DNA of 46,873 nt from a virus (Duplodnaviria > Caudoviricetes). The notes beneath the pieces are model-generated. The model made no database searches. It was not told the origin of the DNA and saw only the letters and a list, made by a program, of their open reading frames with translations. How positions within the stretch are numbered: position 1 is the first letter of the stretch; the number at the start of each line of letters is the position of its first letter. The stretch covers positions 1 through 46,873 of the IMG/VR virus record IMGVR_UViG_3300031949_000067. The stretch is one strand, 5' to 3'. Position numbers and translations under genes: made by a program. Shown here piece by piece: positions 5,757 to 46,873 of this stretch.

Positions 5757-5831
5757 TGCGGGGTAGCTCAGTTGGATCAGAGCACCGGATTTCTAACCCG
5801 AAGGTCGCCGGTTCGAATCCGGCCCCCGCAA
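5757..5831 (+). tRNA. tRNA-Arg (anticodon UCU), CCA not encoded
   Basis: Acceptor TGCGGGG/CCCCGCA, D arm GCTC/GAGC with GGAT loop, anticodon loop TTTCTAA, T arm GCCGG-TTCGAAT-CCGGC. Anticodon stem has only 3 of 5 canonical pairs. Confidence 0.88.
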
Positions 5832-9308: not shown

Positions 9309-9352
9309 AACAAATGCCGGGACCGGCTGGCAACGCACCAACCGGCCCCGGC
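9307..9352 (-). terminator. Intrinsic terminator closing the leftward operon after the periodic array
   Basis: 15-bp stem GCCGGGGCCGGTTGG/CCAGCCGGTCCCGGC, 7-nt loop, followed by ATTTGTTTC on the minus strand; lies at the convergence of two gene blocks. Confidence 0.75.
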
Positions 9353-9364
9353 GGGGGTGAACTA

Positions 9365-9580
9365 CTCGACTCAGGTCGTACAAATACACGCCGCGTTCGG
9401 GACACCACGCCTGAACACGTCTCTCGTTCGCGGCGACGCACTCAACCTCAATCCTCGCTCGCGACGCAGCGCCTCACGGCGCGTCTCGTCCATCGCAGAT
9501 CGTAGCACGCGTCGTCCACGACACCCCGGCTCGCTTCGTCACCCGTCCGCCTCGCAACGATCCACTTCGTCTCTCGTTCA
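9365..9580 (-). ncRNA. Periodic noncoding array: seven ~31-nt units, consensus YGRR-CG(N5)-(YG-NNN)x4; candidate guide RNA(s) for the adjacent RAMP protein
   Basis: Minus-strand units start at 9580, 9549, 9518, 9492, 9461, 9430 and 9399; 24 of 27 pentamers begin YG and all 27 begin with a pyrimidine; GAACGAGAGACG occurs twice. The periodicity is directly visible; RNA function is inferred. Confidence 0.7.
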
Positions 9581-10435
9581 TTCCTCGAATGCGCCCGGGC
9601 CCCGCCGCATGTCCCAGCGCGCGTACTGGCCGTACTGCATCGACCGGTCGCCGTTGAAGCCCTGGACGCCGCCGTAGTCGAGCATGGCCGCCAGGTGCTT
9701 CGGTTTGATCGTGCCGTCACGAAAAACCCCGACCCAGAACACGACCATCACGTTGTTGTATTGTTCAACAGCCTTGAGTGAGTGTCGCGGTCCCTGGGGC
9801 GTCTGCCCGTGGACGACGCATTGCGGAACCTCATCGGGCGGCCCGACGAGTACTCCGTCTGGGCGGCGGATGAACACTTCATCGCGCCAGAATACCTTGT
9901 CCTCGTAGGCGTCGCCGAAAATGTAAAGCCGCTCCTTGGACTTTCCGCCAAACTGCTTCATGGAGAAATTCTGCTCGGCGTATACTCGCAACACGCCACT
10001 GCACGATTTCAAGTGCGCGCGGCACGACGACGACTGCACGTAGGGGGCGCCGACGTTCTGATCCCCGGTAGCGATCCGCAGAAACCCCAAGCTCGATTGA
10101 TCTACCACGTCCTCGGCTTCCGGCCAGTCGTCTACGATCCGATCGACGGCCCGGTCGGTCAGGGCCTCATCGTTTCCGGCCTGTTCGTTGAGCACGCCGA
10201 CCGCCGTTTGCTCCTGGACCCCGACGTGCTTCGCCTTCATTTTCATTTCGCCGAAGTCTTTGATCTTCGCCGCCTTGGCCGCTCTCGCCGTCTTGGCGTC
10301 CGCGTGGGCGTCGAGCACCTTGGGCAGCTTCGGCTTCGTGCCACGCACGTTGCGCAGCATCAGCCGCACCTTGAAAAGCTCCCAACAGGGAGCAACCGGC
10401 CCGTCGTCACTTCTCCACACATTCTGTTCGCTCAT
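9578..10435 (-). CDS. Stand-alone Cas7/RAMP-like (Csm3-group-like) RNA-binding protein (285 aa)
   Basis: N-terminal strand FKVRLMLRNVRG, PYVQSSSCRAHLK (RAMP P.i.gss.kG.lr-like), thumb-like VHGQTPQGPRHSLKAVE, C-terminal Gly-rich loop LDYGGVQGFNGDRSMQYGQY; GGAG RBS and ATGA coupling give a start at 10435. Confidence 0.75.
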   Translation of the reverse strand: MSEQNVWRSDDGPVAPCWELFKVRLMLRNVRGTKPKLPKVLDAHADAKTARAAKAAKIKDFGEMKMKAKHVGVQEQTAVGVLNEQAGNDEALTDRAVDRIVDDWPEAEDVVDQSSLGFLRIATGDQNVGAPYVQSSSCRAHLKSCSGVLRVYAEQNFSMKQFGGKSKERLYIFGDAYEDKVFWRDEVFIRRPDGVLVGPPDEVPQCVVHGQTPQGPRHSLKAVEQYNNVMVVFWVGVFRDGTIKPKHLAAMLDYGGVQGFNGDRSMQYGQYARWDMRRGPGAFEE

Positions 10436-10647
10436 TCGTTTCTTTTCTCCACTTCCGCAGCGACGCCCCCGGCACAACACGGGTAATATCCGACGTATCC
10501 AGGATCATCTGCACCTAGCCCCTTGGGGCACGGACACATTGGCTGTCCACACCGCAAACAAACTAGCTCCCCCATCCTGACCCAAGCGTCATACGTGCGA
10601 GAGGTAAAATTACGCCTTGCAATGTCAGCCGGCTTCTCAGTTCCCAT
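10432..10647 (-). CDS. Small Cys-rich protein translationally coupled to the RAMP gene
   Basis: GGAGGAGG RBS, ATG at 10647; CLRC..CPC..CC; its stop overlaps the RAMP start. Confidence 0.6.
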   Translation of the reverse strand: MGTEKPADIARRNFTSRTYDAWVRMGELVCLRCGQPMCPCPKGLGADDPGYVGYYPCCAGGVAAEVEKRNE

Positions 10648-10648
10648 T

Positions 10649-10846
10649 TTAATGGACTTCCTCCTCCACTTCCGCCGCCACCGTTCCGACCGCGCGGGCC
10701 GTCGCACACATTGCCTCGCCCTGGGATTCGACCTGACGGGCAAGTTCCTCGACGACTGCCCAGAGAACCATGAGTTGTGCCCGTTCACTCGTTGGCTTTG
10801 TTTCAAATCTCCTGCGGAGCCGTGCAATTTCTTCGCTGGGCTTCAT
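10649..10846 (-). CDS. Hypothetical protein
   Basis: ATGA-coupled with the upstream ORF. Confidence 0.6.
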   Translation of the reverse strand: MKPSEEIARLRRRFETKPTSERAQLMVLWAVVEELARQVESQGEAMCATARAVGTVAAEVEEEVH

Positions 10847-14781: not shown

Positions 14782-16173
14782 CTAGAAGGTGGTTTGGGCG
14801 CCCACCTGGGAGTCGTTGGCGAGTCCGAGTCCGACGCGGATGAGCCGGCCGCCGGTTTTCCGTTTGACGAATCCGCGTTCTTCGAGGCGTCGTCCGAATG
14901 CGGTTTGGGACATGGTGTGTCCTTTGCCGGCCCAGGCGACATAGGCGTCGTAGAGTCTGGCGGGCTGGACGGCCATGTTTGGGCTTACCGTGCAGCAGTC
15001 TGCGATGAAAATGGCCAGGGTGTCCTGTTCTTCGCGGTATTGCCCGGTGGCGGCCATGACGGATTCCGGGGGGTTGAGTCCGTCGCGTTGCCAGAGGCGG
15101 CAGCCCTCGAGCGCCCAGTTGAGGATTCCGGGGAGTTCGTCGCGGAGTTTGGCGGGCAGTTGGAGGTCCCGGTCCTCTTCGGGGATGGTGACGGTGAAGG
15201 GGATCAGGCGGATGCGTCGCCAGATGGCGTGGTCGGTTCCGCGAATCTGCGGGAGGTGATTCCCTGAGAGCCAGAGTTTGAACTGGGGGGTGTACTCGAA
15301 GTCCTCGTGGAAGAGGAAGCGGGCGACGATGCGGTCGCCGCCGGTCATAGATTTCACGAGCGATTCGGCGAGTCGTTGTCCGTCTTCGAGTTCTGTGACC
15401 CCGACGAAGCGGACCCCGGCGAGGCGGGCGACGTCGTTGCGGATTTTGTCGTCGCGTTTGAGCATGATGGTCCCGGCGTCGGCTTGGGTGGCGTAGTCGC
15501 CGAGCATGGCCAGGATGGTGTTAACGAAGGTGCTCTTGCCGTTGGCCCCGTGGCCGTACATGACGTGTAGGCATTGCTCGCGGGTGATGCCCGTCAGGCA
15601 ATAGCCCACGGCGATTTGCAGGTAGGGCACGACTTCCGGGTTCTCGCCCATCCAGGTGTTCATGCAGGAGAGCCACGTCGGCGCCTTGGCCGCCGGGTCG
15701 TAGGCGACGCCCGCACACCGAGTGATGAGGTCGGACTGGGTGGCCTTGCGGGTTTCCCCGGTGCGGAGGTCGGTGGTCCCGTTGGTGCAGTTGAACACCC
15801 AGGGGTCGGAGTCGAGCTGATCGTGGGCGATGCGTAGCGGCTTCTCGCACTCGGCCATGTCCAGGATGCCCCGAACGCGGCTGGCGGCTTCGGCTTTCAC
15901 GATTTCCTTGTAGCACTTTTTGCGGAACTCGTCGTTTTTGATGTTGGCGAGGTCGCGATAGGCCCGGCGGACGATGGTTTTGGCCGCCTCTTTGGCCGAC
16001 CCGGTCTCGTCGCGTTTCCAGTGTGAGCCGGTCCAATGGAGCCAACCGGTCTGTAGGCAGTAGCGCAGGAGTTCGCCCTGTTCGCGGGCGAGCCGCTGGC
16101 CGAAGCCTATGTCGGTGTACAGGGGAAATTTGCAGGCTATGGCTTCCCGCGGGATTTTCGGTTCATCGGCCAT
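14782..16173 (-). CDS. D5/P4-family SF3 helicase (phage/plasmid primase-helicase C-terminal part, 463 aa)
   Basis: D5_N-like TDIGFGQRL..W..WTGSHW..FNCTNGTTDLRTG, Walker A YGHGANGKST, VKSMTGGDRIVAR.L, KLWLSGNHLP, AIWRRIRLIPF, C-terminal winged helix. Confidence 0.93.
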   Translation of the reverse strand: MADEPKIPREAIACKFPLYTDIGFGQRLAREQGELLRYCLQTGWLHWTGSHWKRDETGSAKEAAKTIVRRAYRDLANIKNDEFRKKCYKEIVKAEAASRVRGILDMAECEKPLRIAHDQLDSDPWVFNCTNGTTDLRTGETRKATQSDLITRCAGVAYDPAAKAPTWLSCMNTWMGENPEVVPYLQIAVGYCLTGITREQCLHVMYGHGANGKSTFVNTILAMLGDYATQADAGTIMLKRDDKIRNDVARLAGVRFVGVTELEDGQRLAESLVKSMTGGDRIVARFLFHEDFEYTPQFKLWLSGNHLPQIRGTDHAIWRRIRLIPFTVTIPEEDRDLQLPAKLRDELPGILNWALEGCRLWQRDGLNPPESVMAATGQYREEQDTLAIFIADCCTVSPNMAVQPARLYDAYVAWAGKGHTMSQTAFGRRLEERGFVKRKTGGRLIRVGLGLANDSQVGAQTTF

Positions 16174-16417: not shown

Positions 16418-16895
16418 CGGGGGTTTCCTCCACGACCGCGTTGGCCACTTGCAGGGTTTCGGTAATATGCCGGGCGGCCTGATAAAGCCATCGTTCGACG
16501 AATCGGGCCGATGCCTCGTGCGAGCCGCCCAGCCAGACGGGGAGTCCATAAAAGGCCGTCCAGGAGGCCAGTGCCCCCAAAACGTGGGCCGGTTGAAGTT
16601 TCCCGATCCAGTCGCCGGCCTCGAGCGCCGCGGCATCGGTCTCGACAATCAACAGGCGGTAACGATATGCGGCCAATCGTTGGAGTTCGCGTTTGAATCG
16701 GTCGCGTTCCCGCCCGATGCAGGCGAGCAGGTCCGACAGGGTTTTACGTTCTCCGGCGATCAGGTGGGTCAGCCCGGAAATCGAGTAGTCCCCGGCGTCC
16801 AGGACGTCGACCCGAGTTGGAAGGTTGGTGAAGGTGAATGGCGTTTGCTCGCGGCTGTCGATGATGATGACGGGTTTCGGGGCGTTTGTAGGCAT
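16401..16895 (-). CDS. ERCC4/XPF-family nuclease (putative resolvase)
   Basis: IIIDSREQ, LDAGDYS, ERKTLSDL, RFKRELQRL, LLIVE motifs. Confidence 0.9.
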   Translation of the reverse strand: MPTNAPKPVIIIDSREQTPFTFTNLPTRVDVLDAGDYSISGLTHLIAGERKTLSDLLACIGRERDRFKRELQRLAAYRYRLLIVETDAAALEAGDWIGKLQPAHVLGALASWTAFYGLPVWLGGSHEASARFVERWLYQAARHITETLQVANAVVEETPDEHSY

Positions 16896-17058
16896 ATCCG
16901 CGCCAAAAGCGGGTCAGGCCCCCTCGGTTGTGGTAGCAACGACCGAGAGAGGTTGCGGCCGAGGGAGGCCCGCCCGCGTCGCCGTTTTGTTACGTTGGAA
17001 GCGTCATTACTACCACGCTGGTAAGATTGACCGGGCGAACACGAAAGTCAAGAACAAA

Positions 17059-18732
17059 ATGCCGACCGCACTAAAACCGATCGAACTCACCGAGGGCCAG
17101 TTCCGAGAAGTCGTAAAGTGCCGAAATAGCTTTTACTATTGGCTGAAAACCTACACCACGGTCGTAGAGGTCGGAAAGGGCACACCTCAGCGCGTGGCCT
17201 GGAACCTTTGGCCGTCAGAGATCACGCTCGTCGATACCCTGTTGGCCGGAAAGTGGCCGATCGGCCCGAAGGCCCGACAGCTTGGTGTTACGACCATCAA
17301 CCTATACTTCGGGTTGTGGTACATCCAGTTTCACCCGCTGTCCCAGGGCGTCGTGATTTCCGAGAAAGAACAGAAGGCGTTCGAGCTACTCGACTGGATT
17401 CGGGCCATCGCCCAGACCCAGCCCGAATGGATGCAGCAGCCCAGAACCAAAGACTCCGCTAGTATTCTGCAATTCGAGAGTGAAGCTCAGATCATGGCCC
17501 TGGTCGGAAACGAGGGGGCCGGGCGCATGAAGGCCCTCAACTGGGCGTTTATCGACGAAGCATCCTACGTGCCTTCGCTTGAGGCGATCCTGCGTGGAGT
17601 CGAGCCGGCGGCCGAGTCGGCCCGCGGAATCGTCTCCGTGTGTTCGACGACGAAACGTGAGGGCACGAACCCGGTCTCCTACGAGGAGTTCCGCAACGAG
17701 TGCTACGCCGCCGCCGAGGGGAAATCCAAGTTCACGCTCTGTTTCCTGCCCTGGAACATGCGACCGGATCGTACCCAGGAGTGGTACGAACGCGAGGCGG
17801 CCGCCCACGCGCACATCCCCGGATACATGCAGCGCGAGTACCCCGGCACGATGGAAGAGGCGTTCGGCACCGTCGGCGGATCGGTCTTCCCGACCCTACG
17901 CAAAGAGACCCACTGGAAACACTTCGACCCGCCGCCCGGCGCCGAGTTCTACCGAGCCATCGACTTCGGAAACACCGCCGATCACCCGTTCGTCTGCCTC
18001 TGGCTCTGGAACGATGCGTCCGCCGCCCCGACGTTGACCTTCGAATCCGACGAATCCGCCGAGATCGTCATCGCTTCCGAACAGGCACAGGTAAAGTATG
18101 TTAATGGTACCGAGCAACTGCTCTCCTATCGCCGCAACCCCAAAACCGGCAGGTTGAACAAGCTCCACGACGACGTTGCCGACGCCCTGCGCTACGCGGT
18201 CACGATGTTTCGGCTCCGGGGCCACGTGCACGTTTACCGCTGCCTGTTCATCCGTTGCGACACCGATCTTCAGGTCAATCCGCTCCGCATGTTCGAGGGG
18301 ATCATGGAACTAAGCGGATATGAATGCCGCGACCCATTGGCCGGAACCTGGACGAGGGGACCCAACGCGGAGAGCTACGAAGCCACCGTTTGCGACCGCA
18401 GCGGAACAGGATGGATCAGGGTCTTGATTGAAAAGGGAGGAATCATGGGCTTTGGCATCGACGCCGTGGCCTACGAAAAGCCGGATACCTTCACCCGCGA
18501 CGAGCGGGAGCAGGGAATCGTTTGGCTCAACGCCATGATTATCGGGGGCACGACGTTCGAGACTTCGGAGCATAAAACCAGAAGACAGGCGAACCTCGAG
18601 GAACTGACGTCCGGCGAACGACCGCTCCTATTTGAAGAAAAACTGTTGCTTTTTAGGATGGGCCTGTCAGAATCGACCGGTCGAAAAACCATCTGGGGAT
18701 ACGAACCCACGGAGAACGCACATGCACGTTGA
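17059..18732 (+). CDS. terL: Terminase large subunit
   Basis: Walker A PKARQLGVTT, Walker B AFIDEA, coupling motif STT, QREYP..EEAF, nuclease motifs AIDFG and HDDVADALRY. Start at 17059 preferred over 16825, which overlaps the divergent gene. Confidence 0.9.
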   Translation: MPTALKPIELTEGQFREVVKCRNSFYYWLKTYTTVVEVGKGTPQRVAWNLWPSEITLVDTLLAGKWPIGPKARQLGVTTINLYFGLWYIQFHPLSQGVVISEKEQKAFELLDWIRAIAQTQPEWMQQPRTKDSASILQFESEAQIMALVGNEGAGRMKALNWAFIDEASYVPSLEAILRGVEPAAESARGIVSVCSTTKREGTNPVSYEEFRNECYAAAEGKSKFTLCFLPWNMRPDRTQEWYEREAAAHAHIPGYMQREYPGTMEEAFGTVGGSVFPTLRKETHWKHFDPPPGAEFYRAIDFGNTADHPFVCLWLWNDASAAPTLTFESDESAEIVIASEQAQVKYVNGTEQLLSYRRNPKTGRLNKLHDDVADALRYAVTMFRLRGHVHVYRCLFIRCDTDLQVNPLRMFEGIMELSGYECRDPLAGTWTRGPNAESYEATVCDRSGTGWIRVLIEKGGIMGFGIDAVAYEKPDTFTRDEREQGIVWLNAMIIGGTTFETSEHKTRRQANLEELTSGERPLLFEEKLLLFRMGLSESTGRKTIWGYEPTENAHAR

Positions 18733-23269: not shown

Positions 23270-25513
23270 ATGCCTGAGTTCAACCTTGCCGAGCATCGCG
23301 CCAAGATGCAGGATGCCCACCGCGGTAAACTCTCACACGATCTCGACCTGACGAATGATGACGACGCCCTAGAGTTCATCCGCCGCGCCCGCCTGGAAAT
23401 CACCCAGGCCCTCGATCCGTGGTATCGCCGGACCTTGGTCAAGCGGGCGTGGTTCTCCGGCGACCAATACGTGCGCTGGGAAAAGGGTGACAAGAAGATG
23501 GGCGTCGACCCCCGCCTTTATGCTCAGGATTTCCGGGCCATGCCGCTCTGGGAAGACCACCTGGGCATGTTCGTCCGCCGGCAGATCGCCCGAATCGAGG
23601 CGTCAAACTATCAGTTCATGTCCGCCGAATCACGGACGAGGCAACTCGCCGACGTGGAATCCGCCATTCCCGCAGACCGTGTCCTGGAACACTATTGGGA
23701 ACGGACGATCGAAATGGCCGGCGCCGACGATTGGCACCGAGCGCTACACACGTTCGTCACCGATGAGGTGATTTTCGCCTACCCTCGCTACGTGGAAGAC
23801 CCCCTGGGAAACGAAACATTCACCGCGAGCGAGGTCGTCAGCGCCGTTCGAGAATTTGAGCGCCAACGCGAAGAGGGGCGAAACGGAGAACCGCGTCGCG
23901 GTTTCGATGATGGTCGGCAGGCGATCAACACCTGGCTGTTAGAGTCGGTCGGGGTGCCGCCGGAAAAGGTGACGTTCAACGACGACGGGTCCCTGACGGT
24001 CAATCGTGGTCGGCTGGTCGTCGATTGGCTTTCGGGCCTTGAAGTGCTCGAAGATATCAGCGCCGAACGATGGGACGAAAAGGAGTTTGTCATCGTCCGG
24101 CAGCGCAAGTCCATCGGCAGCCTGTTGGAGCAATACCCGCGACTCAAGAACGAAATTCTCAAGTCGCCGGAATATCCGGCCAGCCTTGGTACGGAAACCA
24201 TCCGCGACCAGTGGGCGGCCAATCGGTCAGCCGACATCATGGAATCCACCTGGGTTGACACCCTGTGGCGCAGGCCGTGCAAGAAGTACCCCAAGGGATA
24301 CTTCGTCGTGGCGATTAATGACCTTGCCGTGGCCGAATCAGGAAAGATTCCCTACGACTACCAGGACATCCCCATCATCCCGATTACGAGCAATCCTGAC
24401 TCCTACGACTTCAGGCCGCGCGGAGTTTCGGACTCGGCGTTCATACTCCAACGATTCATCAATCGGCTTTTGGTTCAGATCCAATCGAACATCGACAAGA
24501 CCGTGGACCCCCGGATATTGGCCGAAGAGCAAAGCGTTAAGCCCGACTTCATGGTTGATGCACAGCACGTCGATTGGGTCAAACGCGGAACCATCGAGTG
24601 GCCCCGCCCCCTGATTCAAACGCCGCTCCCGCCGCATGTTTTCGCGCTGTTACAACACCTTGTCGCCGCGATCAAGGAGATTACCGGGACAACGAATCCG
24701 GCCCTCGGCACACCGGACCCGGCGGCGCGGAGCGGCCGGGCGCTCTACGCTCTAATCGGTTCGGCCGATCAGGGGGCCGTCGTTCCCATCAAGGCACTCG
24801 CCTTGGGACTCAAAAAACTGGGTGAACGCATGTTACAACTGGTGGCCCAGTTCGTTCCCGAAGAGACCACGATTCTCATCGCCGGGGAACGCGGACAGCG
24901 CGAATACTTGACGTTCAGCGGCAAGAGCCTCATCGCCCAAAGCCAGAATGACGGTCGGCCGGCCAGCCTGCTCTACGACATCCGCGTGGAAATCAAGCCC
25001 AAGCCGGACGAGGCGACGATCATGGAAATGATTGACTTCCTGACTGCCCGCCGTTTCCTGGACCCCCAGCGGGACCGCAGCGCGGTCATGCGGGCCTTGA
25101 GGACGTTGGACATCAGCGAACTCGACACCACCCATCAGCACCGAACGAGAGCGGAACAAGAAAACGCCTTCTTGTGGAAGGTTTCACAAGAGCTTCAGGC
25201 GGGAACGAGAGACACCCAATCGGCCCGAATCGCGATGGGCGAACTCGTGAAGATCGAAAAAACTCAGGACCACGGCGTCCACCTCGATGAACACGGCCGC
25301 TTGCAGAATTTGTTTGGAGAACAGTTGCATTTCGTCGTCGGCGACTATTTAATCCAGCACAACGAGGAGCACATGGCGGCAGAGCAAGAGACGATGATGC
25401 GTCAGTTGTCGAACATCCAGGCCGCAGCGCGGACCACGCCGCTCGGTCGTTCATCGACCAAGCCGGCCGTATCCGGCGTTCCGCGCCAAGAATCCCAGGT
25501 CGCGGGAGGGTAG
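23270..25513 (+). CDS. Portal protein (747 aa)
   Basis: Size and position; FSGDQY, IPIIP, LQRFINRLL.QI..NI, AARSGRAL, ERMLQLVAQF, A.QEN and QDHGVHLDEH motifs of P22-like portals. Confidence 0.85.
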   Translation: MPEFNLAEHRAKMQDAHRGKLSHDLDLTNDDDALEFIRRARLEITQALDPWYRRTLVKRAWFSGDQYVRWEKGDKKMGVDPRLYAQDFRAMPLWEDHLGMFVRRQIARIEASNYQFMSAESRTRQLADVESAIPADRVLEHYWERTIEMAGADDWHRALHTFVTDEVIFAYPRYVEDPLGNETFTASEVVSAVREFERQREEGRNGEPRRGFDDGRQAINTWLLESVGVPPEKVTFNDDGSLTVNRGRLVVDWLSGLEVLEDISAERWDEKEFVIVRQRKSIGSLLEQYPRLKNEILKSPEYPASLGTETIRDQWAANRSADIMESTWVDTLWRRPCKKYPKGYFVVAINDLAVAESGKIPYDYQDIPIIPITSNPDSYDFRPRGVSDSAFILQRFINRLLVQIQSNIDKTVDPRILAEEQSVKPDFMVDAQHVDWVKRGTIEWPRPLIQTPLPPHVFALLQHLVAAIKEITGTTNPALGTPDPAARSGRALYALIGSADQGAVVPIKALALGLKKLGERMLQLVAQFVPEETTILIAGERGQREYLTFSGKSLIAQSQNDGRPASLLYDIRVEIKPKPDEATIMEMIDFLTARRFLDPQRDRSAVMRALRTLDISELDTTHQHRTRAEQENAFLWKVSQELQAGTRDTQSARIAMGELVKIEKTQDHGVHLDEHGRLQNLFGEQLHFVVGDYLIQHNEEHMAAEQETMMRQLSNIQAAARTTPLGRSSTKPAVSGVPRQESQVAGG

Positions 25514-26282: not shown

Positions 26283-26373
26283 TCACCGTTTTGTAGGAAA
26301 CGTCTCAACTTAACAATCAGGCCCCGACGAACCGACTAGCTATCGGGTCGTCGTTCCTCTGTGAAAACAGAAG

Positions 26374-26418
26374 CCGCGGCAGTACGGACCGTACCCGTAC
26401 TGCGCGCGGTTTTTTGTT
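26374..26418 (+). terminator. Terminator-like hairpin just upstream of the capsid RBS
   Basis: CCGCG-GCAGTACGG/CCGTACTGC-G-CGCGG stem followed by TTTTTTGTT. Confidence 0.5.
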
Positions 26419-26435
26419 GGGCCCAGGAGAAAACA

Positions 26436-27752
26436 ATGACTCTCATGCTGTTTACCGCACTCATAGTTCTTGCCTTTTGCCTAATCGCGTTCGCCGCCCC
26501 CGTCGGGGCCGATCGGACGACGATGGAGAACCTTCTCCAAGAGCAGTTTCGTGACGACAAGATCACGCTGGCCATCAATACGATGGACCTCTTCAACGAG
26601 ACCCTCATGCGAACCCCACGATCAGTCACCGAGGGGCTGAAGTACACGACCTACACTACGACGGCCCTACCGGACAACGACCGCCACTCCAAGGAATGGG
26701 ATGATGTGTCAACGCCCTATCCGTCCGAAGAGGGACTGGCCCACTGGAACATGACGACCGGCGGATTCACCATCCGGGTCTCATACCAGTTGATGCAGGA
26801 CAACGACGGCAGCGCCGTCAATCACTTCAATCACCAGATGAAGCTTAGCCTTGAGGGCCAGAAGCTCACCAAAGAGCGCATCTGGTTCATGGAGTCCACC
26901 GGGAAAATGGCGGGCATCGTATCCGCCGCCTCGGCCACCTCGATCGTCGTGGACAACTACCGCCTGCTCTTGAACAAGATGCACATCGACGTGTGCGTTG
27001 GCACGACAGGCGTCGAGGGCAACGGCATCTACGGGGCACAAATCACGGCGATTACCCCCAATCGAGACAACGGCCAGGGAACGGTAACACTGGCCGCGCC
27101 GGGGCTGAAGAACTTTGCCGGCGTGGACACGACCTACATCCTCGTCCGGTCCGGCGAGTACAACAAGTTGCCCTGGGGCCTGCCGGACATCATTACGTCC
27201 ACCACCAACCCCACCGGCGGGAACTTCGGCACCATCGACCGCACGAGCGCCACGAACGATTGGTGGAGGGCCAACACCTGGGACATGGCCGGCGCCCCGC
27301 CGACGCCAGAAATGATCGAGCTTGGAATGCTCGAAATCGCCGCTCGATTCGGTGCCATGCCCAATCAAATCTGGATGGGCCTGTACGCCCACAAGAACCT
27401 CACTACCGGACGGCTCGGCGACATTCGCCGGACGGCCGACCAGAAGCAGGTCGAAATCTGGCTTGGGGAACTCGTTCACCAGGGCGTGGAGATTCGGGCA
27501 CACCGATTCATCACCGACAGTGACATCTGGTTCATCAACACCAAGGTCATTCACGAGGACTACAAGGCGTCGCTAGGCGAAGGCGGCGAATGGGTGAAGA
27601 ACGACGCCGGCGGCCGGCTGCACAACATGCTCTCTAGCGGCAAGTTGGGCGTCCAGGCGGCTTACGTGCGCATGTGCCAGCACTCGTGCGACGACCCGCG
27701 GGCGCTGGGGCGAATGACTAACGTGGCCTGGTCGCGATTGGGCACGCCGTAA
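26436..27752 (+). CDS. Major capsid protein
   Basis: Follows the scaffold gene; AGGAG RBS; GLPDII...GNFGTIDRT..NDWWRAN and C-terminal CDDPRALGRMTNV resemble HK97-fold podovirus capsids. Confidence 0.78.
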   Translation: MTLMLFTALIVLAFCLIAFAAPVGADRTTMENLLQEQFRDDKITLAINTMDLFNETLMRTPRSVTEGLKYTTYTTTALPDNDRHSKEWDDVSTPYPSEEGLAHWNMTTGGFTIRVSYQLMQDNDGSAVNHFNHQMKLSLEGQKLTKERIWFMESTGKMAGIVSAASATSIVVDNYRLLLNKMHIDVCVGTTGVEGNGIYGAQITAITPNRDNGQGTVTLAAPGLKNFAGVDTTYILVRSGEYNKLPWGLPDIITSTTNPTGGNFGTIDRTSATNDWWRANTWDMAGAPPTPEMIELGMLEIAARFGAMPNQIWMGLYAHKNLTTGRLGDIRRTADQKQVEIWLGELVHQGVEIRAHRFITDSDIWFINTKVIHEDYKASLGEGGEWVKNDAGGRLHNMLSSGKLGVQAAYVRMCQHSCDDPRALGRMTNVAWSRLGTP

Positions 27753-29948: not shown

Positions 29949-32117
29949 ATGCCCCGCAGTCCGGCGCGAGTTCAGCGGTTCATCGGCCCGCTCGGCGGGC
30001 TGGTAACTCATGTCGATGCCCACGCCGTACCCATCACGTCCGCCCAGGATTGCGAGAACGTCGTCCTCATGGAACGGAGTATTCGCGCCCGCAACGGGCT
30101 TCGGCGGCTGGAGTCGGCGACGATCGCGGACTGCCGGATTGAAGGATTGTGGGGTGGCTTGACCGCCCCGGCGTCCGGGGCCGCGGCAGAGATCATCGTC
30201 ATCAAGACGTCGGCCATGTCCGGCGATTACGTCAACGGGGCGCTCTACTTCTCGTTCGCCGTCTCCGGGGCCTACCAGGCACAGGCCGGAACGGCGATCA
30301 CCATCAACGGGAACGTGCCGACGTTCGTTCAACACGGTCAGCGCGACGCCAACGCCGAGTCTCAGGTCTACATGCTGGACGGGTCTGCCCGGGCGCACCG
30401 CATTCCGCTCTCGACGGGCAAGGCGGCGTACCCCGTGGGTCTGACGGCCCCGACGATTTCGGCGAGCACGTTCATCACGAGCGGGCTGACTCATCCGACC
30501 TTTGGGGATAACGAATATCGGGTGACTTTGGTGAATCGTGCCAACCGCCCCGCGGACGACGAATCCGGCAGGCCCGGCCTGGAATCCAGCGCCAGCCCCA
30601 TCAAGACGCAGAACGTAAGTGCCGCATCGGAGGCTCAACTGACCGTAAGCACCGTCGATCCGGCAATTGAACCTTGGACGCATATTCGCGTGTACCGCAA
30701 GGGGCCATCCCAGGCGCATCACCTATTCATCGGCGAGTGGGCTAGACCCATCAACCCTTCTGGACTCCAAGAAAGCGGAGATGGTTTGCTTCTTTGGCTT
30801 TCGGACACAAGCTACAAGCTCGACGAGGCCGGACCGTTCGAGGACGGCCCCGCCGGCGGCGAGTTCCTTGCCCAACCCAACGGCAACGACCCGTGGGACT
30901 TCGCCCCGACGCGCAACGGCGTGCCCGCGAACATGCGCTATCTCGCGTTCTGGGGGGCTAGGTCGTTCTGGGGCCGCCCCAATGAGCCGGGCGTGTTCTA
31001 CTCCGATGTGTTCGACTCCCAGTCCGGCGGGCATTTCGAGGCGATTTCGGGAGAGAAACTGCCGATTCTCGACGCTCCGACGACGCTCTTGGCAGTCATG
31101 GGCGAAGGACTCATCATCGGCACGACGATCGGCCTCCACGCCATCCTCGGCACATTGGTCAGTCACGACAACAACTCGGCCGCCCAGGGCCTAAAACTGC
31201 CCGTCATCTCTCCCACGATTCGCCGCTTTCCAGGCGCTACCCCGCCCGTTGCCCAAGGGACCGGGAGCTACGTCATCGCCGCCGGAAACCTTTACTACAT
31301 AAGTGCTTACGGTCTTGAGCGTTTTAACGGCCAGATCTCCGAAAATGTCTCGGACGGCATCGAAGGGCTGCTCGGAACCAGCAACAACCTGTCTGTGTTG
31401 CAAACGGCGACTCTGGCCCACGATTCGATCGAGCGGCGAATCTACATGCTCGTTCGCACGCCCGTAAGTGGCGGGAAATACACCGAGGACATTGCGGGGA
31501 CGACGGGACAGCTCGAGTCCGTCATCTACGTTTACCACTACGCCCGCCCCAACCCGGAAACGGGACGCGGCGACTGGACGAAGATTGAACGGGTCGGCGT
31601 GTGTTCGGAATCGAGCGCCCACGATCAACGCTACTCGGCGATCGGGGTGCGGCAGACCGGGGCTGCCCGCCCGCTGCTCATGGTCGGCATGCGCATCTAC
31701 GATGCCACCGATACCCGCTTCGACGACGCCCAGGTTTACACGGAATCGCTAACCGAAGCCCGCGACGAGAAGGCGATCGAAACGTCCCCGACAAACGTGA
31801 CCGTTCCGTGGTCTTGGAAGTCGGGCAGTTGGGACTTTGGATACCCGGACATTCAAAAACAGGTACACCACGTCGTCGCCAAAACCAAAGCGATCACCGG
31901 GGGTACGGCCGAGAACTACACCGTCGCCGCCCATTTGGACGCAGACCCGACGCCCACCCAGGACGACTTTGCCGAAACCCTTGACCGCGCGGACCTGTCA
32001 GTTGGCGCGTTCGTCGACTCGATTGCCGTGGAGCTGTCCGGCGATTCTGGGGCGAACGGAACACCATCCGAAACGCTGGGGTTCACCGTGGAGGCCGAAG
32101 CTGCCGATGCCTATTGA
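29949..32117 (+). CDS. Putative tail nozzle / packaged-DNA stabilisation protein (722 aa)
   Basis: GGL...CENV..R.G start, beta-rich propeller-like body, WKSGSWDFGYPDIQK C-terminal motif; follows the adaptor. Confidence 0.65.
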   Translation: MPRSPARVQRFIGPLGGLVTHVDAHAVPITSAQDCENVVLMERSIRARNGLRRLESATIADCRIEGLWGGLTAPASGAAAEIIVIKTSAMSGDYVNGALYFSFAVSGAYQAQAGTAITINGNVPTFVQHGQRDANAESQVYMLDGSARAHRIPLSTGKAAYPVGLTAPTISASTFITSGLTHPTFGDNEYRVTLVNRANRPADDESGRPGLESSASPIKTQNVSAASEAQLTVSTVDPAIEPWTHIRVYRKGPSQAHHLFIGEWARPINPSGLQESGDGLLLWLSDTSYKLDEAGPFEDGPAGGEFLAQPNGNDPWDFAPTRNGVPANMRYLAFWGARSFWGRPNEPGVFYSDVFDSQSGGHFEAISGEKLPILDAPTTLLAVMGEGLIIGTTIGLHAILGTLVSHDNNSAAQGLKLPVISPTIRRFPGATPPVAQGTGSYVIAAGNLYYISAYGLERFNGQISENVSDGIEGLLGTSNNLSVLQTATLAHDSIERRIYMLVRTPVSGGKYTEDIAGTTGQLESVIYVYHYARPNPETGRGDWTKIERVGVCSESSAHDQRYSAIGVRQTGAARPLLMVGMRIYDATDTRFDDAQVYTESLTEARDEKAIETSPTNVTVPWSWKSGSWDFGYPDIQKQVHHVVAKTKAITGGTAENYTVAAHLDADPTPTQDDFAETLDRADLSVGAFVDSIAVELSGDSGANGTPSETLGFTVEAEAADAY

Positions 32118-33960
32118 TCCCGTGGTCCTTGAATCCAGGATACAGAACCTTGAGCGGGTCACAGCTGCGTTCCTACGCCCAGGGTTCGCGTCCGTCATGG
32201 ACTCTTTTGCTGTCGGCGGGACATACAAACAGGTTCACACCCGCACCAACACAGTTGATCCCCCAGTTTTTGGGTGGATTGACCAAGATGCCAGCGGTCC
32301 CGGACCAACCAATCCGGACACCCAATCCGTTCCGTTCATCACCAACATCACCGGCGGGAACGTCACGCTGGGATATGTCGCGGGCACCAGCCCAGCCAAC
32401 AAGGTCGTGTCGTCGAGTTCATCCGATCAGGACGCGGTGACGGTCTTCATTGAGGTCGACGGCGGCTCCGACGGGTGGCAGCCGACGGTGACCATCAATG
32501 CCGTCGCAGTGACGAACCTGACCCGCATGGGGTCCGATACCCGGCGGTTCAGTGGATCGGCGGCGATCACGATGGCGGCTTCCGGGTCGATCGAAGTGAA
32601 TTGCGCCGACGGCGGCTTCTACACGATCGACCACGTTCGCGAGACCGGCCCGGCGATCTTGACGGCGACGTTCGGGGCCTATCCCGGCAGTCAGACCGCC
32701 GTGAAGTCTGGGGACACGATTCACATCACCGGCACGTGCGACGCCGACGCGACCACGATCTACGTGACCGACTTCGAGGCGTCGTCCGCCCTACAGGAAT
32801 TCACGGGCATCACTGGCGGGGTCTTCGACATCACCGTGACCATCGGGTCACGTTCCGGGTCAGACCAGCATTGCCGCCTCTACGCCAAGGACTCCGGCGG
32901 GTTCCAGGGAGCGAATTTCGACACCACGAACACGATCATCCTCGATCAGACGACTCCGACGTTCGGCACCCTGAGCGTCACGTACCCCGCCGGCCCGCCG
33001 CAACAGGAAGCGATCAAGTCTGGCGAGGACGCTGCGGTCGCATGTACCGTGACCAACTGGGACGCCGGGACGATGAGCATTGTCTACAGCAGTCCGAACA
33101 GCCAAGTGACGATCGTGGATGACGAAATGTACGCGGCGTCGAAGACGGCGACCTATCTGGCGGGCAGCTACAACATCTCGACGACGAACTACCGGATGAC
33201 GGTGACGTACGCGCCGACGGCAAAGGTTGCCACCAAAGACGGTGTGGTCTGGATCGCCAACAGCGCCGCGAACGTCAGCGTCAATTCGGGGAATCTATCG
33301 TCGTCCTCGTCGGGCAGCGTCTTGCCCCGGCTCGGAACAGATAACGGGACCGTCGGATATCGGGACCATTCGGTCTACTTGAACGGGGATCAACGCCTAC
33401 TAGCTGCCGGCGGGGCTGTTTTGACAGCTTCTAAGGGAGCGTGGCAAGGGTCGTGGACGGCGACGGACACAAACACGTGGAGTCGCAGTCTTAGGATCGC
33501 TGATGCCGCCATTCTCGCGGGCGGACAGGCGGCCAACAACGGAACTTTCTCGGCCCTTTCGGTGAGGAATCTGGCCAACGTCGAGACGACGGCGATTCAG
33601 TACAACGCGAGCTACGCCATCGGCGGCTTCCAGACGCGGACGCTCAACATGGGTCCAATCACTGGGGGCGACCCCCCGTACACGCACACGGCGGATATCG
33701 GCGTTCCCGTCGTCAACACGACGAAATGCACCGTGGTCAATACGAGCAAAGGAGGCACTCCGGCGCAGACTTACGAGGGCAACGTAACCGAACACAACGA
33801 TGCCGACTCGTCGTTGAACAACTTCTGGACCACGGTTGCGGCATTGGCGGGTGAAAGCTTCGACGACTACACGCGGTATTTCCACTGTTCGGACAAGAAG
33901 TTCTACGACTCAGTAACGGCCCCTGGCGGCTTTAACGTTACGATTGCGGAGAGCGCCTAA
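32107..33960 (+). CDS. Virion structural protein, Thr/Gly/Ser-rich beta-sandwich repeats
   Basis: ATG at 32107 overlapping the previous gene; composition and position. Confidence 0.6.
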   Translation: MPIDPVVLESRIQNLERVTAAFLRPGFASVMDSFAVGGTYKQVHTRTNTVDPPVFGWIDQDASGPGPTNPDTQSVPFITNITGGNVTLGYVAGTSPANKVVSSSSSDQDAVTVFIEVDGGSDGWQPTVTINAVAVTNLTRMGSDTRRFSGSAAITMAASGSIEVNCADGGFYTIDHVRETGPAILTATFGAYPGSQTAVKSGDTIHITGTCDADATTIYVTDFEASSALQEFTGITGGVFDITVTIGSRSGSDQHCRLYAKDSGGFQGANFDTTNTIILDQTTPTFGTLSVTYPAGPPQQEAIKSGEDAAVACTVTNWDAGTMSIVYSSPNSQVTIVDDEMYAASKTATYLAGSYNISTTNYRMTVTYAPTAKVATKDGVVWIANSAANVSVNSGNLSSSSSGSVLPRLGTDNGTVGYRDHSVYLNGDQRLLAAGGAVLTASKGAWQGSWTATDTNTWSRSLRIADAAILAGGQAANNGTFSALSVRNLANVETTAIQYNASYAIGGFQTRTLNMGPITGGDPPYTHTADIGVPVVNTTKCTVVNTSKGGTPAQTYEGNVTEHNDADSSLNNFWTTVAALAGESFDDYTRYFHCSDKKFYDSVTAPGGFNVTIAESA

Positions 33961-45718: not shown

Positions 45719-45922
45719 GTGCGCGAACCAAAACGAAGAAATACGTTCTTGTACGTAAGGCCCGACGACAAAGAGAAGATGATGCGGGTCGCCGAGGCCA
45801 ATGATCGGTCGATCGCCGCTCAGTTCGCGATTATGCTTCGCGAATACACCATGCGGAACGGCAATGGCGAAGACGGCAAAAACCGATCCAAGGCCAAGGC
45901 GAACGCCGTGGACGATACCTAA
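45719..45922 (+). CDS. Ribbon-helix-helix (Arc/CopG-like) regulator
   Basis: TFLYVRPDDKEKMMRVAEANDRSIAAQFAIMLREY matches the beta-alpha-alpha pattern; GTG start 7 nt after the -10 box (start uncertain). Confidence 0.7.
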   Translation: MREPKRRNTFLYVRPDDKEKMMRVAEANDRSIAAQFAIMLREYTMRNGNGEDGKNRSKAKANAVDDT

Positions 45923-46342
45923 GTCTCTGTTCCATCCTCGCCGCGGCGATCGTGGCGCCGCGGCTGCCCTTAGATTCTACTCCGGGAGACCGGGGAGCCA
46001 GGCCGGCGCGGCGGTTGCGCCATCGCTGCGCCGGTCAATTTTCTCGCTGCGGTTCCGGGCGGCGTTCCGCCGCGAACGAGAGACGCCGTCCGGGCCGCAC
46101 TTTGTGAGGTAAACGACTGTGGCCAAACTGAAGACTCCACCCCGTGACCACACGGGGATTCTACTGAAGCTCACCGCCGACTGCCGCGCTAAGTTCTGGC
46201 CGTTCGGTGTTCCGGGTGAGGATCGCTGGGGCGGCGGCGAGTCACCGAAGGAAACCAAGCCGCGACTCGACCGGCACTGTAAGTCGAACTCGGTGGCCTG
46301 CGGGCGGTCAGCGAACGCGCCCGAATCATGGATAGGTGACTA

Positions 46343-46873
46343 ATGGGCAACCTTCACGGAATCGAACTACCCGCGTGCGACGTGATCCAGTGCCGCGACC
46401 GAGAGGACTGGCTGGACAAACACGGCAGGGTAATGACCACATCCGATGCGATGGCAGCGCTCGGAGAGGACGACTACAAGTCCTACTTTTCCCTCTACTT
46501 CGAAAAGACCGATGGCGCCGCCGACGTCGACAACCTGCCCATGAAGCTGGGCCGCTACCTCGAACCGTTCATGGCCGACGAGTACGTGCTCGCGACGCAA
46601 CGCACCGTCCGGTTGACGCCCTACACGCTTTGCGTGTCGCGAGAACACCCTTGGTTGGCCTGCACGCCGGACGCCCTAGCGCTACCCGCCGACGATCCCC
46701 GGCAGTGCGAGTTCAAGACCACGAGCGCCTATGCCGCAGACGCGTGGAAGAACGGCGGCGCTCCGCTTCGGGCGCAGGTGCAACTCATTCTCGGTCTGGC
46801 GATTACCGGATTGCGGTTCGGCGACCTGTTTGCCCTAATCGGCAACCGCTCGCTGGAGCTGCGACCCATCGAC
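46343..46873 (+). CDS. YqaJ-like viral recombinase exonuclease, N-terminal part (continues at 128..529)
   Basis: Hand translation: REDWL..HGRVMTTSDAMAALG..YKS..SLYFEKT..MKLGRYLEP..HPWLACTPDAL..CEFKT; PD-(D/E)xK motif of the lambda-exonuclease family. Absent from the ORF track because it runs off the end. Confidence 0.9.
   Translation, partial: MGNLHGIELPACDVIQCRDREDWLDKHGRVMTTSDAMAALGEDDYKSYFSLYFEKTDGAADVDNLPMKLGRYLEPFMADEYVLATQRTVRLTPYTLCVSREHPWLACTPDALALPADDPRQCEFKTTSAYAADAWKNGGAPLRAQVQLILGLAITGLRFGDLFALIGNRSLELRPID
46748..46873. repeat. Terminal direct overlap (126 bp), right copy
   Basis: Identical to 2-127. Confidence 0.97.

What the first reader, a model, noticed from the sequence alone, without database searches (positions are those of the whole stretch)
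9365..9580. Two-level periodicity (5 nt inside 31 nt) in the noncoding array
Seen on the minus strand: U1 9580 TGAA CGAGAGA CGAAG TGGAT CGTTG CGAGG; U2 9549 CGGA CGGGTGA CGAAG CGAGC CGGGG TGTCG; U3 9518 TGGA CGACGCG TGCTA CGATC TGCGA (26 nt, exactly one pentamer short); U4 9492 TGGA CGAGACG CGCCG TGAGG CGCTG CGTCG; U5 9461 CGAG CGAGGAT TGAGG TTGAG TGCGT CGCCG; U6 9430 CGAA CGAGAGA CGTGT TCAGG CGTGG TGTCC; U7 9399 CGAA CGCGGCG TGTAT TTGTA CGACC TGAGT; terminal CGAG at 9368. All 7 headers are YG-RR-CG, and 24 of 27 pentamers begin YG. The intervening bases differ between units, so this is a conserved scaffold with a variable payload, not a decaying tandem repeat. Periods of 5 and 31 do not fit a codon explanation. 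Inference: the headers mark processing or unit boundaries, giving up to seven short guides.
Basis: seen in the sequence. Interest (0 to 1): 0.9.

Follow-up and report, generated by a model that had tools for sequence, protein, structure and literature searches.

The report
Punctuated VIPR-type phage guide array
This 216-base repeat sits directly behind a lone CRISPR-like (Cas7-fold) gene in a phage and likely encodes seven very short guide RNAs of a VIPR-type DNA-silencing system, with an unusual five-base scaffold and CRISPR-like punctuation; in related phages such units match rival phages' capsid and Vipr genes, but this phage's own targets were not found.

Summary
The 5-in-31 pattern is real: 7 of 7 headers are YG-RR-CG, 24 of 27 pentamers begin YG, and lag 31 was reached by 0 of 5,000 shuffles. 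The array starts in the stop codon of a lone 285-aa gene whose predicted fold is a CRISPR RAMP (Csm3, Z 12.7) and ends before a terminator-like hairpin. Homologous genes in 33 of 38 loci carry the same grammar on the gene's strand: YG-NNN pentamers broken by a register-shifting header. The shift is +1 here, +2 (TGATCGG) or +3 (N-CGAG) in relatives, so 31 nt is locus-specific. In the +3 sister clade the code could be read: pentamer positions 3-4 specify the target with a one-base skip at codon wobble positions. One unit matches rival vipr genes 22/22, others match capsid genes, and position 5 matches only at chance. That is the VIPR code on an N-Y-G scaffold instead of G-G-Y. This window's units specify only 10-12 bases, and no target, transcript or processing site is shown. 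Verdict: a new variant of a known kind (VIPR). The pentamer motif may already be in print; I did not find the header punctuation described.

The parts
9578..10435 (-). Stand-alone RAMP/Cas7-fold gene, 285 aa (Vipr-like); its TGA stop codon is the first TG of the array
   Evidence: ORF; 64 homologues; AlphaFold model pLDDT 83.5; RAMP fold; conserved G-loop residues G259, R264, G269
9365..9580 (-). Array of seven header-punctuated YG-NNN pentamer units plus terminal CGAG (inferred guide array)
   Evidence: same grammar beside homologues
9546..9576 (-). Inferred guide 1 if units run from CGAG to CGAG (31 nt)
   Evidence: inference from unit boundary in sister clade
9515..9545 (-). Inferred guide 2 (31 nt)
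   Evidence: inference, as guide 1
9489..9514 (-). Inferred guide 3 (26 nt, one pentamer short)
   Evidence: inference, as guide 1
9458..9488 (-). Inferred guide 4 (31 nt)
   Evidence: inference, as guide 1
9427..9457 (-). Inferred guide 5 (31 nt)
   Evidence: inference, as guide 1
9396..9426 (-). Inferred guide 6 (31 nt)
   Evidence: inference, as guide 1
9369..9395 (-). Inferred guide 7 (27 nt), followed by terminal CGAG at 9368-9365
   Evidence: inference, as guide 1
9316..9352 (-). 17-bp terminator-like hairpin with T-rich tail closing the gene + array transcript, at the junction with convergent + strand genes
   Evidence: consensus scan only; 5 such sites vs 4.0 expected in the region, but this one has 17 pairs
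10432..10647 (-). 71-aa Cys-rich ORF overlapping the RAMP start codon; possible accessory (vap-like) gene, untested
   Evidence: ORF frame; no Pfam, PHROG or PADLOC match for the in-frame stretch 10435-10701

Best explanation
The tract is likely the guide-RNA array of a phage VIPR-type system: the adjacent gene has a predicted RAMP fold and would polymerise on the co-transcribed RNA, one subunit per five bases, and is inferred to bind and silence DNA of competing phages. Each subunit would hold three bases (N-Y-G) out of the duplex and present two (pentamer positions 3-4) for pairing, skipping one target base each step. The YGRR-CGAG header shifts the five-base register and is inferred to mark where the transcript is cut or loading restarts, giving 26-31-nt guides that specify 10-12 bases each. 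Shown: the pattern, the gene linkage, the family-wide grammar, and the NN + 1-skip reading in the sister clade. Predicted by model: the fold. Inferred: the same register in this window, expression, processing, guide strand, silencing.
For: Fold: AlphaFold model from 58 sequences, pLDDT 83.5. The top 34 VIA-align rows are CRISPR effector/RAMP entries, best Csm3 Z 12.7, rmsd 3.1, 161 aligned; all listed Foldseek PDB rows are CRISPR effector chains. No other cas gene or CRISPR array was seen among the window ORFs scanned. Linkage: 33 of 38 homologous loci have at least 2 header+pentamer units within about 1.5 kb on the gene's strand, 0 of 38 on the other strand. Grammar: positions 1-2 fixed, positions 3-5 at 1.89-1.99 bits (307 pentamers; 936 pentamers). 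Code, in the +3 clade: an L064 unit matches the G-loop codons of vipr genes in L054, L058 and L063 at 22/22 and its own vipr at 19/22; E 3.5e-7 against a best of 4.7e-4 in 34 shuffles; peptide-level score 37.4 vs null maxima 18-24. At E<0.06 there were 9 hits vs a null mean of 3.3, and the skip fell on the wobble position of the longest ORF in 6, vs null mean 1.2 and maximum 4 in 133 shuffles. After checking the real gene, 8 of 9 are in wobble phase: 1 vipr, 6 in major head or protease-head genes, 1 in an unknown 394-aa ORF. Position 5 matched 17 of 56 (30%) vs 27% in shuffles.
Against: No significant target for any of the window's seven units in its own genome or in 2.56 Mb of related sequence. 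No signal for the nearer TGATCGG clade either, so the register here is carried over from a clade at about 25-30% protein identity. Only 1 of 311 guides is individually significant; the other 8 hits count only in aggregate, 3 of them lie in the guide's own or a near-identical genome with 2-3 mismatches, and the aggregate excess fades at looser thresholds (E<1: 21 wobble vs null mean 18.9). Ten to twelve specified bases is low specificity (published vrRNAs have 9-16 repeats). Sequence likeness to SUSP1 Vipr is weak: G-loop region only, hhalign probability 17%, E 0.0015. The fixed bases are not GGY, and there is no conserved structured tail per unit.
Confidence: 0.8

Rival explanations
1. Same system, but the headers are not cut sites: the array works as one long RNA or as multi-unit guides in which the header bulges out, so that two or more units address one longer or bipartite target.
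For: Single units here specify only 10-12 bases. No processing nuclease is evident, and no RNA data exist. Two-unit tests gave a few 17/18 matches, one of them (L005 units 6+7, gap 7) inside the window's own RAMP gene.
Against: The best two-unit E values (0.012, 0.023 among 96 pairs) are at chance level. In the sister clade the 22/22 match stops at the headers on both sides. Arrays usually begin and often end with a header, like CRISPR repeats.
Confidence: 0.2
2. The window's clade reads its pentamers differently from the sister clade, for example three paired bases per step, or it uses the opposite (C-R-N) strand as guide, supplied by read-through from the convergent + strand operon.
For: Three positions are fully variable. 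The window protein is a long branch (1.75) in the tree. The terminator-like hairpin has its T-rich tail only on the minus strand. Target matches cannot tell the guide strand.
Against: Three-base rules with 1-3 skips gave nothing beyond chance. Under the contiguous three-base rule all mismatches of the best hit fall on position 5. YG is on the gene's strand in 33 of 38 loci and on the other in none, including L007 and L010, where the array is the leader of the gene.
Confidence: 0.12
3. The array is a decaying or non-guide element: a degenerate minisatellite, a protein-binding or autoregulatory RNA, or a relic of a VIPR that no longer targets anything.
For: No targets and no RNA evidence for this locus; three pentamers and two headers depart from consensus; nearby arrays contain duplicated units.
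Against: The scaffold is fixed while the payload is near maximum entropy across more than 30 loci; the gene is intact; header type follows the protein tree; sister-clade units match conserved phage genes in codon register.
Confidence: 0.07

Closest known systems
VIPR systems, type II (Escherichia phage SUSP1, Pseudomonas fulva prophage); bioRxiv 10.64898/2026.04.26.720920 and .720927
   Same: Lone phage RAMP gene with adjacent 5-nt-periodic non-coding tract; NN + one-base skip falling on codon wobble positions (shown here in the sister clade); targets include rival vipr genes and other phage genes, with lower match to self.
   Different: Scaffold N-Y-G instead of G-G-Y. Units of 4-5 pentamers here (3-12 in relatives) instead of 9-16. 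Units are separated by a 4-9-nt header that shifts the register, not by a structured 3' tail or pseudoknot. Protein likeness to SUSP1 Vipr is limited to the G-loop region.
Non-canonical and 'staggered' VIPR arrays (NNNGG, YNNNG, NNNNG repeats and 1-nt staggered arrays in 10.64898/2026.04.26.720920; GAC/NN, CAC/NN, WGT/NN, TGH/NN clusters in 10.64898/2026.10.21.760802)
   Same: Five-base period with non-GGY fixed bases; contiguous arrays with register shifts at unit boundaries. This family's majority pentamer reads GTG/NN, whose reverse complement is CAC/NN, and it also fits NNNNG, so it may be among the published clusters.
   Different: The passages and legends read describe a 1-nt overlap, not a conserved header adding +1, +2 or +3 bases, and give no target reading for a YG scaffold. 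The figures, data files and the seed protein X1U2U4 could not be seen, so overlap with a published type is open.
Class 1 CRISPR-Cas (Cas7/Csm3 backbone with repeat-spacer array)
   Same: RAMP fold; alternating conserved and variable segments with a header at each end, like n+1 repeats.
   Different: No other cas genes; 'repeat' is 6-13 nt and not a hairpin; 'spacers' are gapped pentamer tracts, not contiguous copies of a target.
TIGR-Tas (PMC12045711; search listing only, details recalled)
   Same: Phage-borne tandem array of short fixed-length guide units with a conserved scaffold and no CRISPR repeats.
   Different: TIGR uses a Nop-domain protein and dual contiguous spacers in about 36-nt units (recalled); here the protein is a RAMP and the code is gapped in 5-nt steps.

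Membership tests
VIPR | Stand-alone RAMP-fold protein with G-loop and thumb, outside any CRISPR locus | tested here: met
   Predicted model and fold searches; G-loop residues invariant in 58 sequences; long beta hairpin at 205-223 in the model; no cas hits among scanned ORFs
VIPR | Protein falls in the Vipr clade (PSI-BLAST family of X1U2U4, seven types) | tested here: inconclusive
   Only SUSP1 Vipr could be fetched; hhalign E 0.0015, probability 17%, 52 columns at the G-loop. Seed proteins and type alignments were not available
VIPR | Adjacent 5-nt tandem repeat with fixed and hypervariable positions | tested here: met
VIPR | Canonical GGY/NN motif | tested here: not met
   Fixed bases are Y-G with a free third base; the paper allows 'a related consensus' such as NNNNG
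VIPR | NN + 1-nt skip code with skip at codon wobble | tested here: inconclusive
   Met in the +3 sister clade; no signal for the window's units or the TGATCGG clade
VIPR | Targets in competing mobile elements, low self-match | tested here: inconclusive
   Sister clade: vipr and head genes of related phages, own vipr 19/22 vs 22/22; window: none found
VIPR type II | 9-16 repeats followed by a conserved structured 3' tail | tested here: not met
   4-5 pentamers per unit, no per-unit tail, fold z +0.55
VIPR | Accessory vap gene | tested here: inconclusive
   71-aa ORF upstream has no family match; several sister loci have a small conserved ORF between gene and array
VIPR | Guide RNA expressed and bound by the protein; transcriptional repression | not testable with these tools
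   Needs RNA data and bench work
CRISPR-Cas class 1 | CRISPR repeats with contiguous spacers and a cas operon | tested here: not met
   No Rfam CRISPR match, no repeat family at the locus, no cas genes found
TIGR-Tas | Nop-domain Tas protein with dual-spacer units (recalled) | tested here: not met
   Adjacent protein has a RAMP fold and no Pfam match

The most novel reading that the evidence does not exclude
This family is a VIPR lineage that has evolved a true repeat-spacer architecture: a short conserved header (CGAG core, +1/+2/+3 register shift) acts as the cutting and loading signal, possibly read by the RAMP itself, and releases many 26-60-nt gapped guides from one transcript. That would be a living structural intermediate between VIPR tracts and CRISPR arrays, with this phage holding the shortest guides known for a RAMP (10-12 specifying bases) on a rewired N-Y-G scaffold.
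Probability: 0.3. Interest if true: 0.8.

Novelty: new variant of a known kind. Interest (0 to 1): 0.55.

Why it matters
How multi-guide VIPR arrays are cut into guides, and how RAMP systems came to use repeat-spacer arrays, are open questions. This family offers a testable answer: a conserved header whose length follows the protein tree. The sister-clade result gives the reading frame for a non-GGY scaffold, so guides can be designed and tested directly. If 31-nt guides with 10-12 specifying bases work, they set a lower limit for RAMP-guided DNA recognition and suggest a compact multiplex silencing format.

Tried and rejected
Coding explanation: rejected. Two minus-strand frames contain stops, the open frames are not conserved, and periods 5 and 31 do not fit codons. 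Structured RNA or known family: none. Self-targets in the window under 16 rules: the best, 14/15, was equalled in 10.7% of shuffles. Window units against 2.56 Mb: perfect 10/10 matches at chance level, none 12/12. Two-unit guides: chance level. TGATCGG-clade aggregate test on 207 called genes: no excess. A neutral position inferred from near-duplicate units: no position stood out. Rules 4-5/skip 1 and 3-5/skip 0 gave 3 hits each at E<0.01, within the null maximum of 4. Close relatives: none by terminase, by P0002, by the exact 31-nt pattern in viral contigs, by tblastn in GenBank phages or by word-indexed protein search. Planctomycetota samples: 2 of 401 and 1 of 401 genomes matched. No RNA holder listed; the one DNA run is probably the source and showed no variants. 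The single-sequence fold failed (pLDDT 30.7). UniProt accessions for homologues were not available. Earlier-findings look-ups by place, by sequence and by three word sets returned nothing.

Full report
Observation. The tract is as described. All 7 headers read YG-RR-CG and 24 of 27 pentamers begin YG. Against 5,000 dinucleotide-preserving shuffles, YG autocorrelation is 27 at lag 5 (null 14.7±3.2; 1 of 5,000 as high) and 35 at lag 31 (12.8±3.0; 0 of 5,000). Nowhere else in the window, on either strand, does a 216-nt stretch exceed 17 and 21. The unit parses as 6x5+1. The RNA would be unstructured (z +0.55) and has no Rfam match.

Surroundings. The window is a tailed phage genome. The first TG of the array is the stop codon of a 285-aa gene at 10435-9578, and a 17-bp terminator-like hairpin follows the array at 9352-9316. 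The protein has no Pfam, PHROG or PADLOC match but has 64 homologues, the best at 40% identity. A model built from 58 of these 65 sequences (7 short fragments left out) has pLDDT 83.5. It matches CRISPR RAMPs: Csm3 at Z 12.7, rmsd 3.1 over 161 residues, with the top 34 rows all CRISPR effector entries, and all listed Foldseek rows are CRISPR effector chains. A lone phage RAMP beside a 5-nt-periodic tract is the definition of a VIPR locus (10.64898/2026.04.26.720920; I read parts 1-3 of 6, selected passages and supplement legends). Likeness to SUSP1 Vipr, identified as agp039 by the residues named in 10.64898/2026.04.26.720927 (part 1 of 6 read), is weak and confined to the G-loop region (E 0.0015, probability 17%).

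The family grammar. Homologous loci carry the same design. In 33 of 38 loci examined, at least two header+pentamer units lie near the gene on its own strand, and in 0 of 38 on the other strand. Of the five misses, three show one unit by the strict pattern, one contig starts inside the gene, and one shows no array. Ten loci of the nearer clade use a 7-nt header, mostly TGATCGG (register +2), followed by 3-8 pentamers. A larger clade uses YG-N-C-G-N then CGAG-NNN (register +3): 168 units in 23 loci, 160 with that spacing. The window uses YG-RR then CGAG-NNN (+1). In both sets positions 1-2 are fixed and positions 3-5 carry 1.89-1.99 bits; units whose length did not fit the register were dropped before counting. 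The +2 and +3 groups each form one side of a branch in a protein tree (support 92/83 and 94/100; labels were assigned by search group, not re-verified for every row), and the window protein is a long branch beside P0002, whose DNA could not be fetched. So the header and the pentamer are conserved, and the 31-nt period is not.

Reading the code. I tested units against fetched phage and prophage DNA with arrays masked: 257 guides on 1.47 Mb under ten rules, then 311 guides on 2.56 Mb under eight rules. One hit stands alone. A unit of L064 matches the G-loop codons of vipr genes in L054, L058 and L063 at 22 of 22 when pentamer positions 3-4 are read with a one-base skip; its own gene matches 19 of 22. 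E was 3.5e-7 against a best of 4.7e-4 in 34 shuffles, and the peptide-level score was 37.4 against null maxima of 18-24. The match spans one header-to-header unit and stops there. Among the 180 guides of seven or more pentamers, 9 hits had E<0.06 (null mean 3.3). By a blind longest-ORF rule the skip fell on the wobble position in 6 (null mean 1.2, maximum 4 in 133 shuffles). With the real gene checked by hand it is 8 of 9: one vipr, six in major head or protease-head genes, one unknown ORF. Position 5 matched in 17 of 56 cases, as in shuffles (27%), so it is variable but uninformative. The displaced triplet is therefore N-Y-G. Limits: the eight weaker hits count only together, three are in the guide's own or a near-identical genome with 2-3 mismatches, the excess vanishes at E<1, and the two other rules with a three-base step gave 3 hits each at E<0.01, within their null range.

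What is not shown for this window. Its units specify 10 bases, or 12 if the header RR pairs. No significant target was found in its own genome or in the fetched set, and the +2 clade gave no signal. Two-unit guides scored at chance. There is no RNA data. The register, the guide strand, cutting at headers and silencing are therefore inferred.

Mechanism. Most likely (0.8) the gene and array are co-transcribed leftwards to the hairpin, the RAMP polymerises one subunit per pentamer, holds N-Y-G out and presents two bases, and the complex binds DNA of competing phages with a one-base skip, repressing genes without cutting, since the protein has no nuclease domain and none is adjacent. The header shifts the register and most likely sets guide ends. 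The main doubts are whether units act singly (0.2 that they do not), whether this clade uses the same register and strand (0.12 that it does not), and whether the array is still active (0.07).

Comparison with what is known. It works like VIPR. It fails the canonical GGY motif and the type II tail, and clade membership could not be tested. The discovery paper mentions NNNGG, YNNNG and NNNNG repeats and staggered arrays with 1-nt overlap. A later preprint (10.64898/2026.10.21.760802; passages and section 4.22 read) lists CAC/NN and TGH/NN clusters, and CAC/NN is the reverse complement of this family's majority GTG/NN. Targeting of rival vipr genes with lower self-match is already reported (10.64898/2026.10.15.759431; part 1 and passages read). 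I found no description of a conserved register-shifting header or of target reading on a YG scaffold in these texts or in searches, but figures, data files and bioRxiv supplements could not be seen and may contain it. Earlier notes of this scan describe other punctuated or non-canonical VIPR arrays; I did not check them.

Verdict. Real feature, a new variant of a known kind, interest 0.55. The boldest reading left open, a repeat-spacer VIPR lineage that bridges to CRISPR arrays and uses 31-nt guides, has probability about 0.3 and would merit 0.8.

Noticed in passing
window 46068-46085 (+): Exact 18-nt copy of array bases 9435-9418 (last pentamer of U5 plus header of U6), inside a long intergenic hairpin (46048-46099) upstream of the 46343 ORF. 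Scaffold-preserving shuffles reached 18 nt in 1 of 1,500. No such copy from inside the array in four related genomes. Chance, decoy or loading site; unexplained.
   Followed up: partly
window 10516-10502 (-): Unit 6 has a perfect 10/10 gapped match 67-81 bases upstream of the RAMP start codon, in the small ORF; not in wobble phase, and about 0.1 such matches per unit are expected by chance. Autoregulation is possible but unsupported.
   Followed up: partly
window 45922-46343: Intergenic region with several strong hairpins between the 1,611-aa gene and the early operon; possible origin or non-coding RNA.
   Followed up: no
L064:3990-4047: Guide aimed at the G-loop codons of rival vipr genes; its own gene escapes by using different Arg and Ser codon families (19/22 vs 22/22).
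   Followed up: yes
L051-L056, L058-L060, L063, L070, just downstream of the RAMP gene: A conserved small ORF of about 55-100 codons lies between gene and array, and its stop codon often starts the first header; candidate accessory gene.
   Followed up: no
L100, L101, L102 (records G424, G425): Short header+pentamer arrays far from the RAMP gene, possibly orphan guide cassettes; one matches a 394-aa gene of a near-identical phage at 18/20.
   Followed up: partly
L022:1-570 and L023:2085-2400: More distant RAMP homologues have G-rich 5-nt-rhythm tracts with other scaffolds.
   Followed up: no
window 5757-5831 (+): One tRNA gene (Rfam).
   Followed up: no
window 14782-16173, 16825-18732, 23270-25513, 26361-27752, 31837-33960: D5-like primase, large terminase, portal, major head and tail sheath genes: the window is a tailed phage genome with no close relative found; the only cellular locus of the nearer clade is in a Phycisphaerales genome.
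   Followed up: partly
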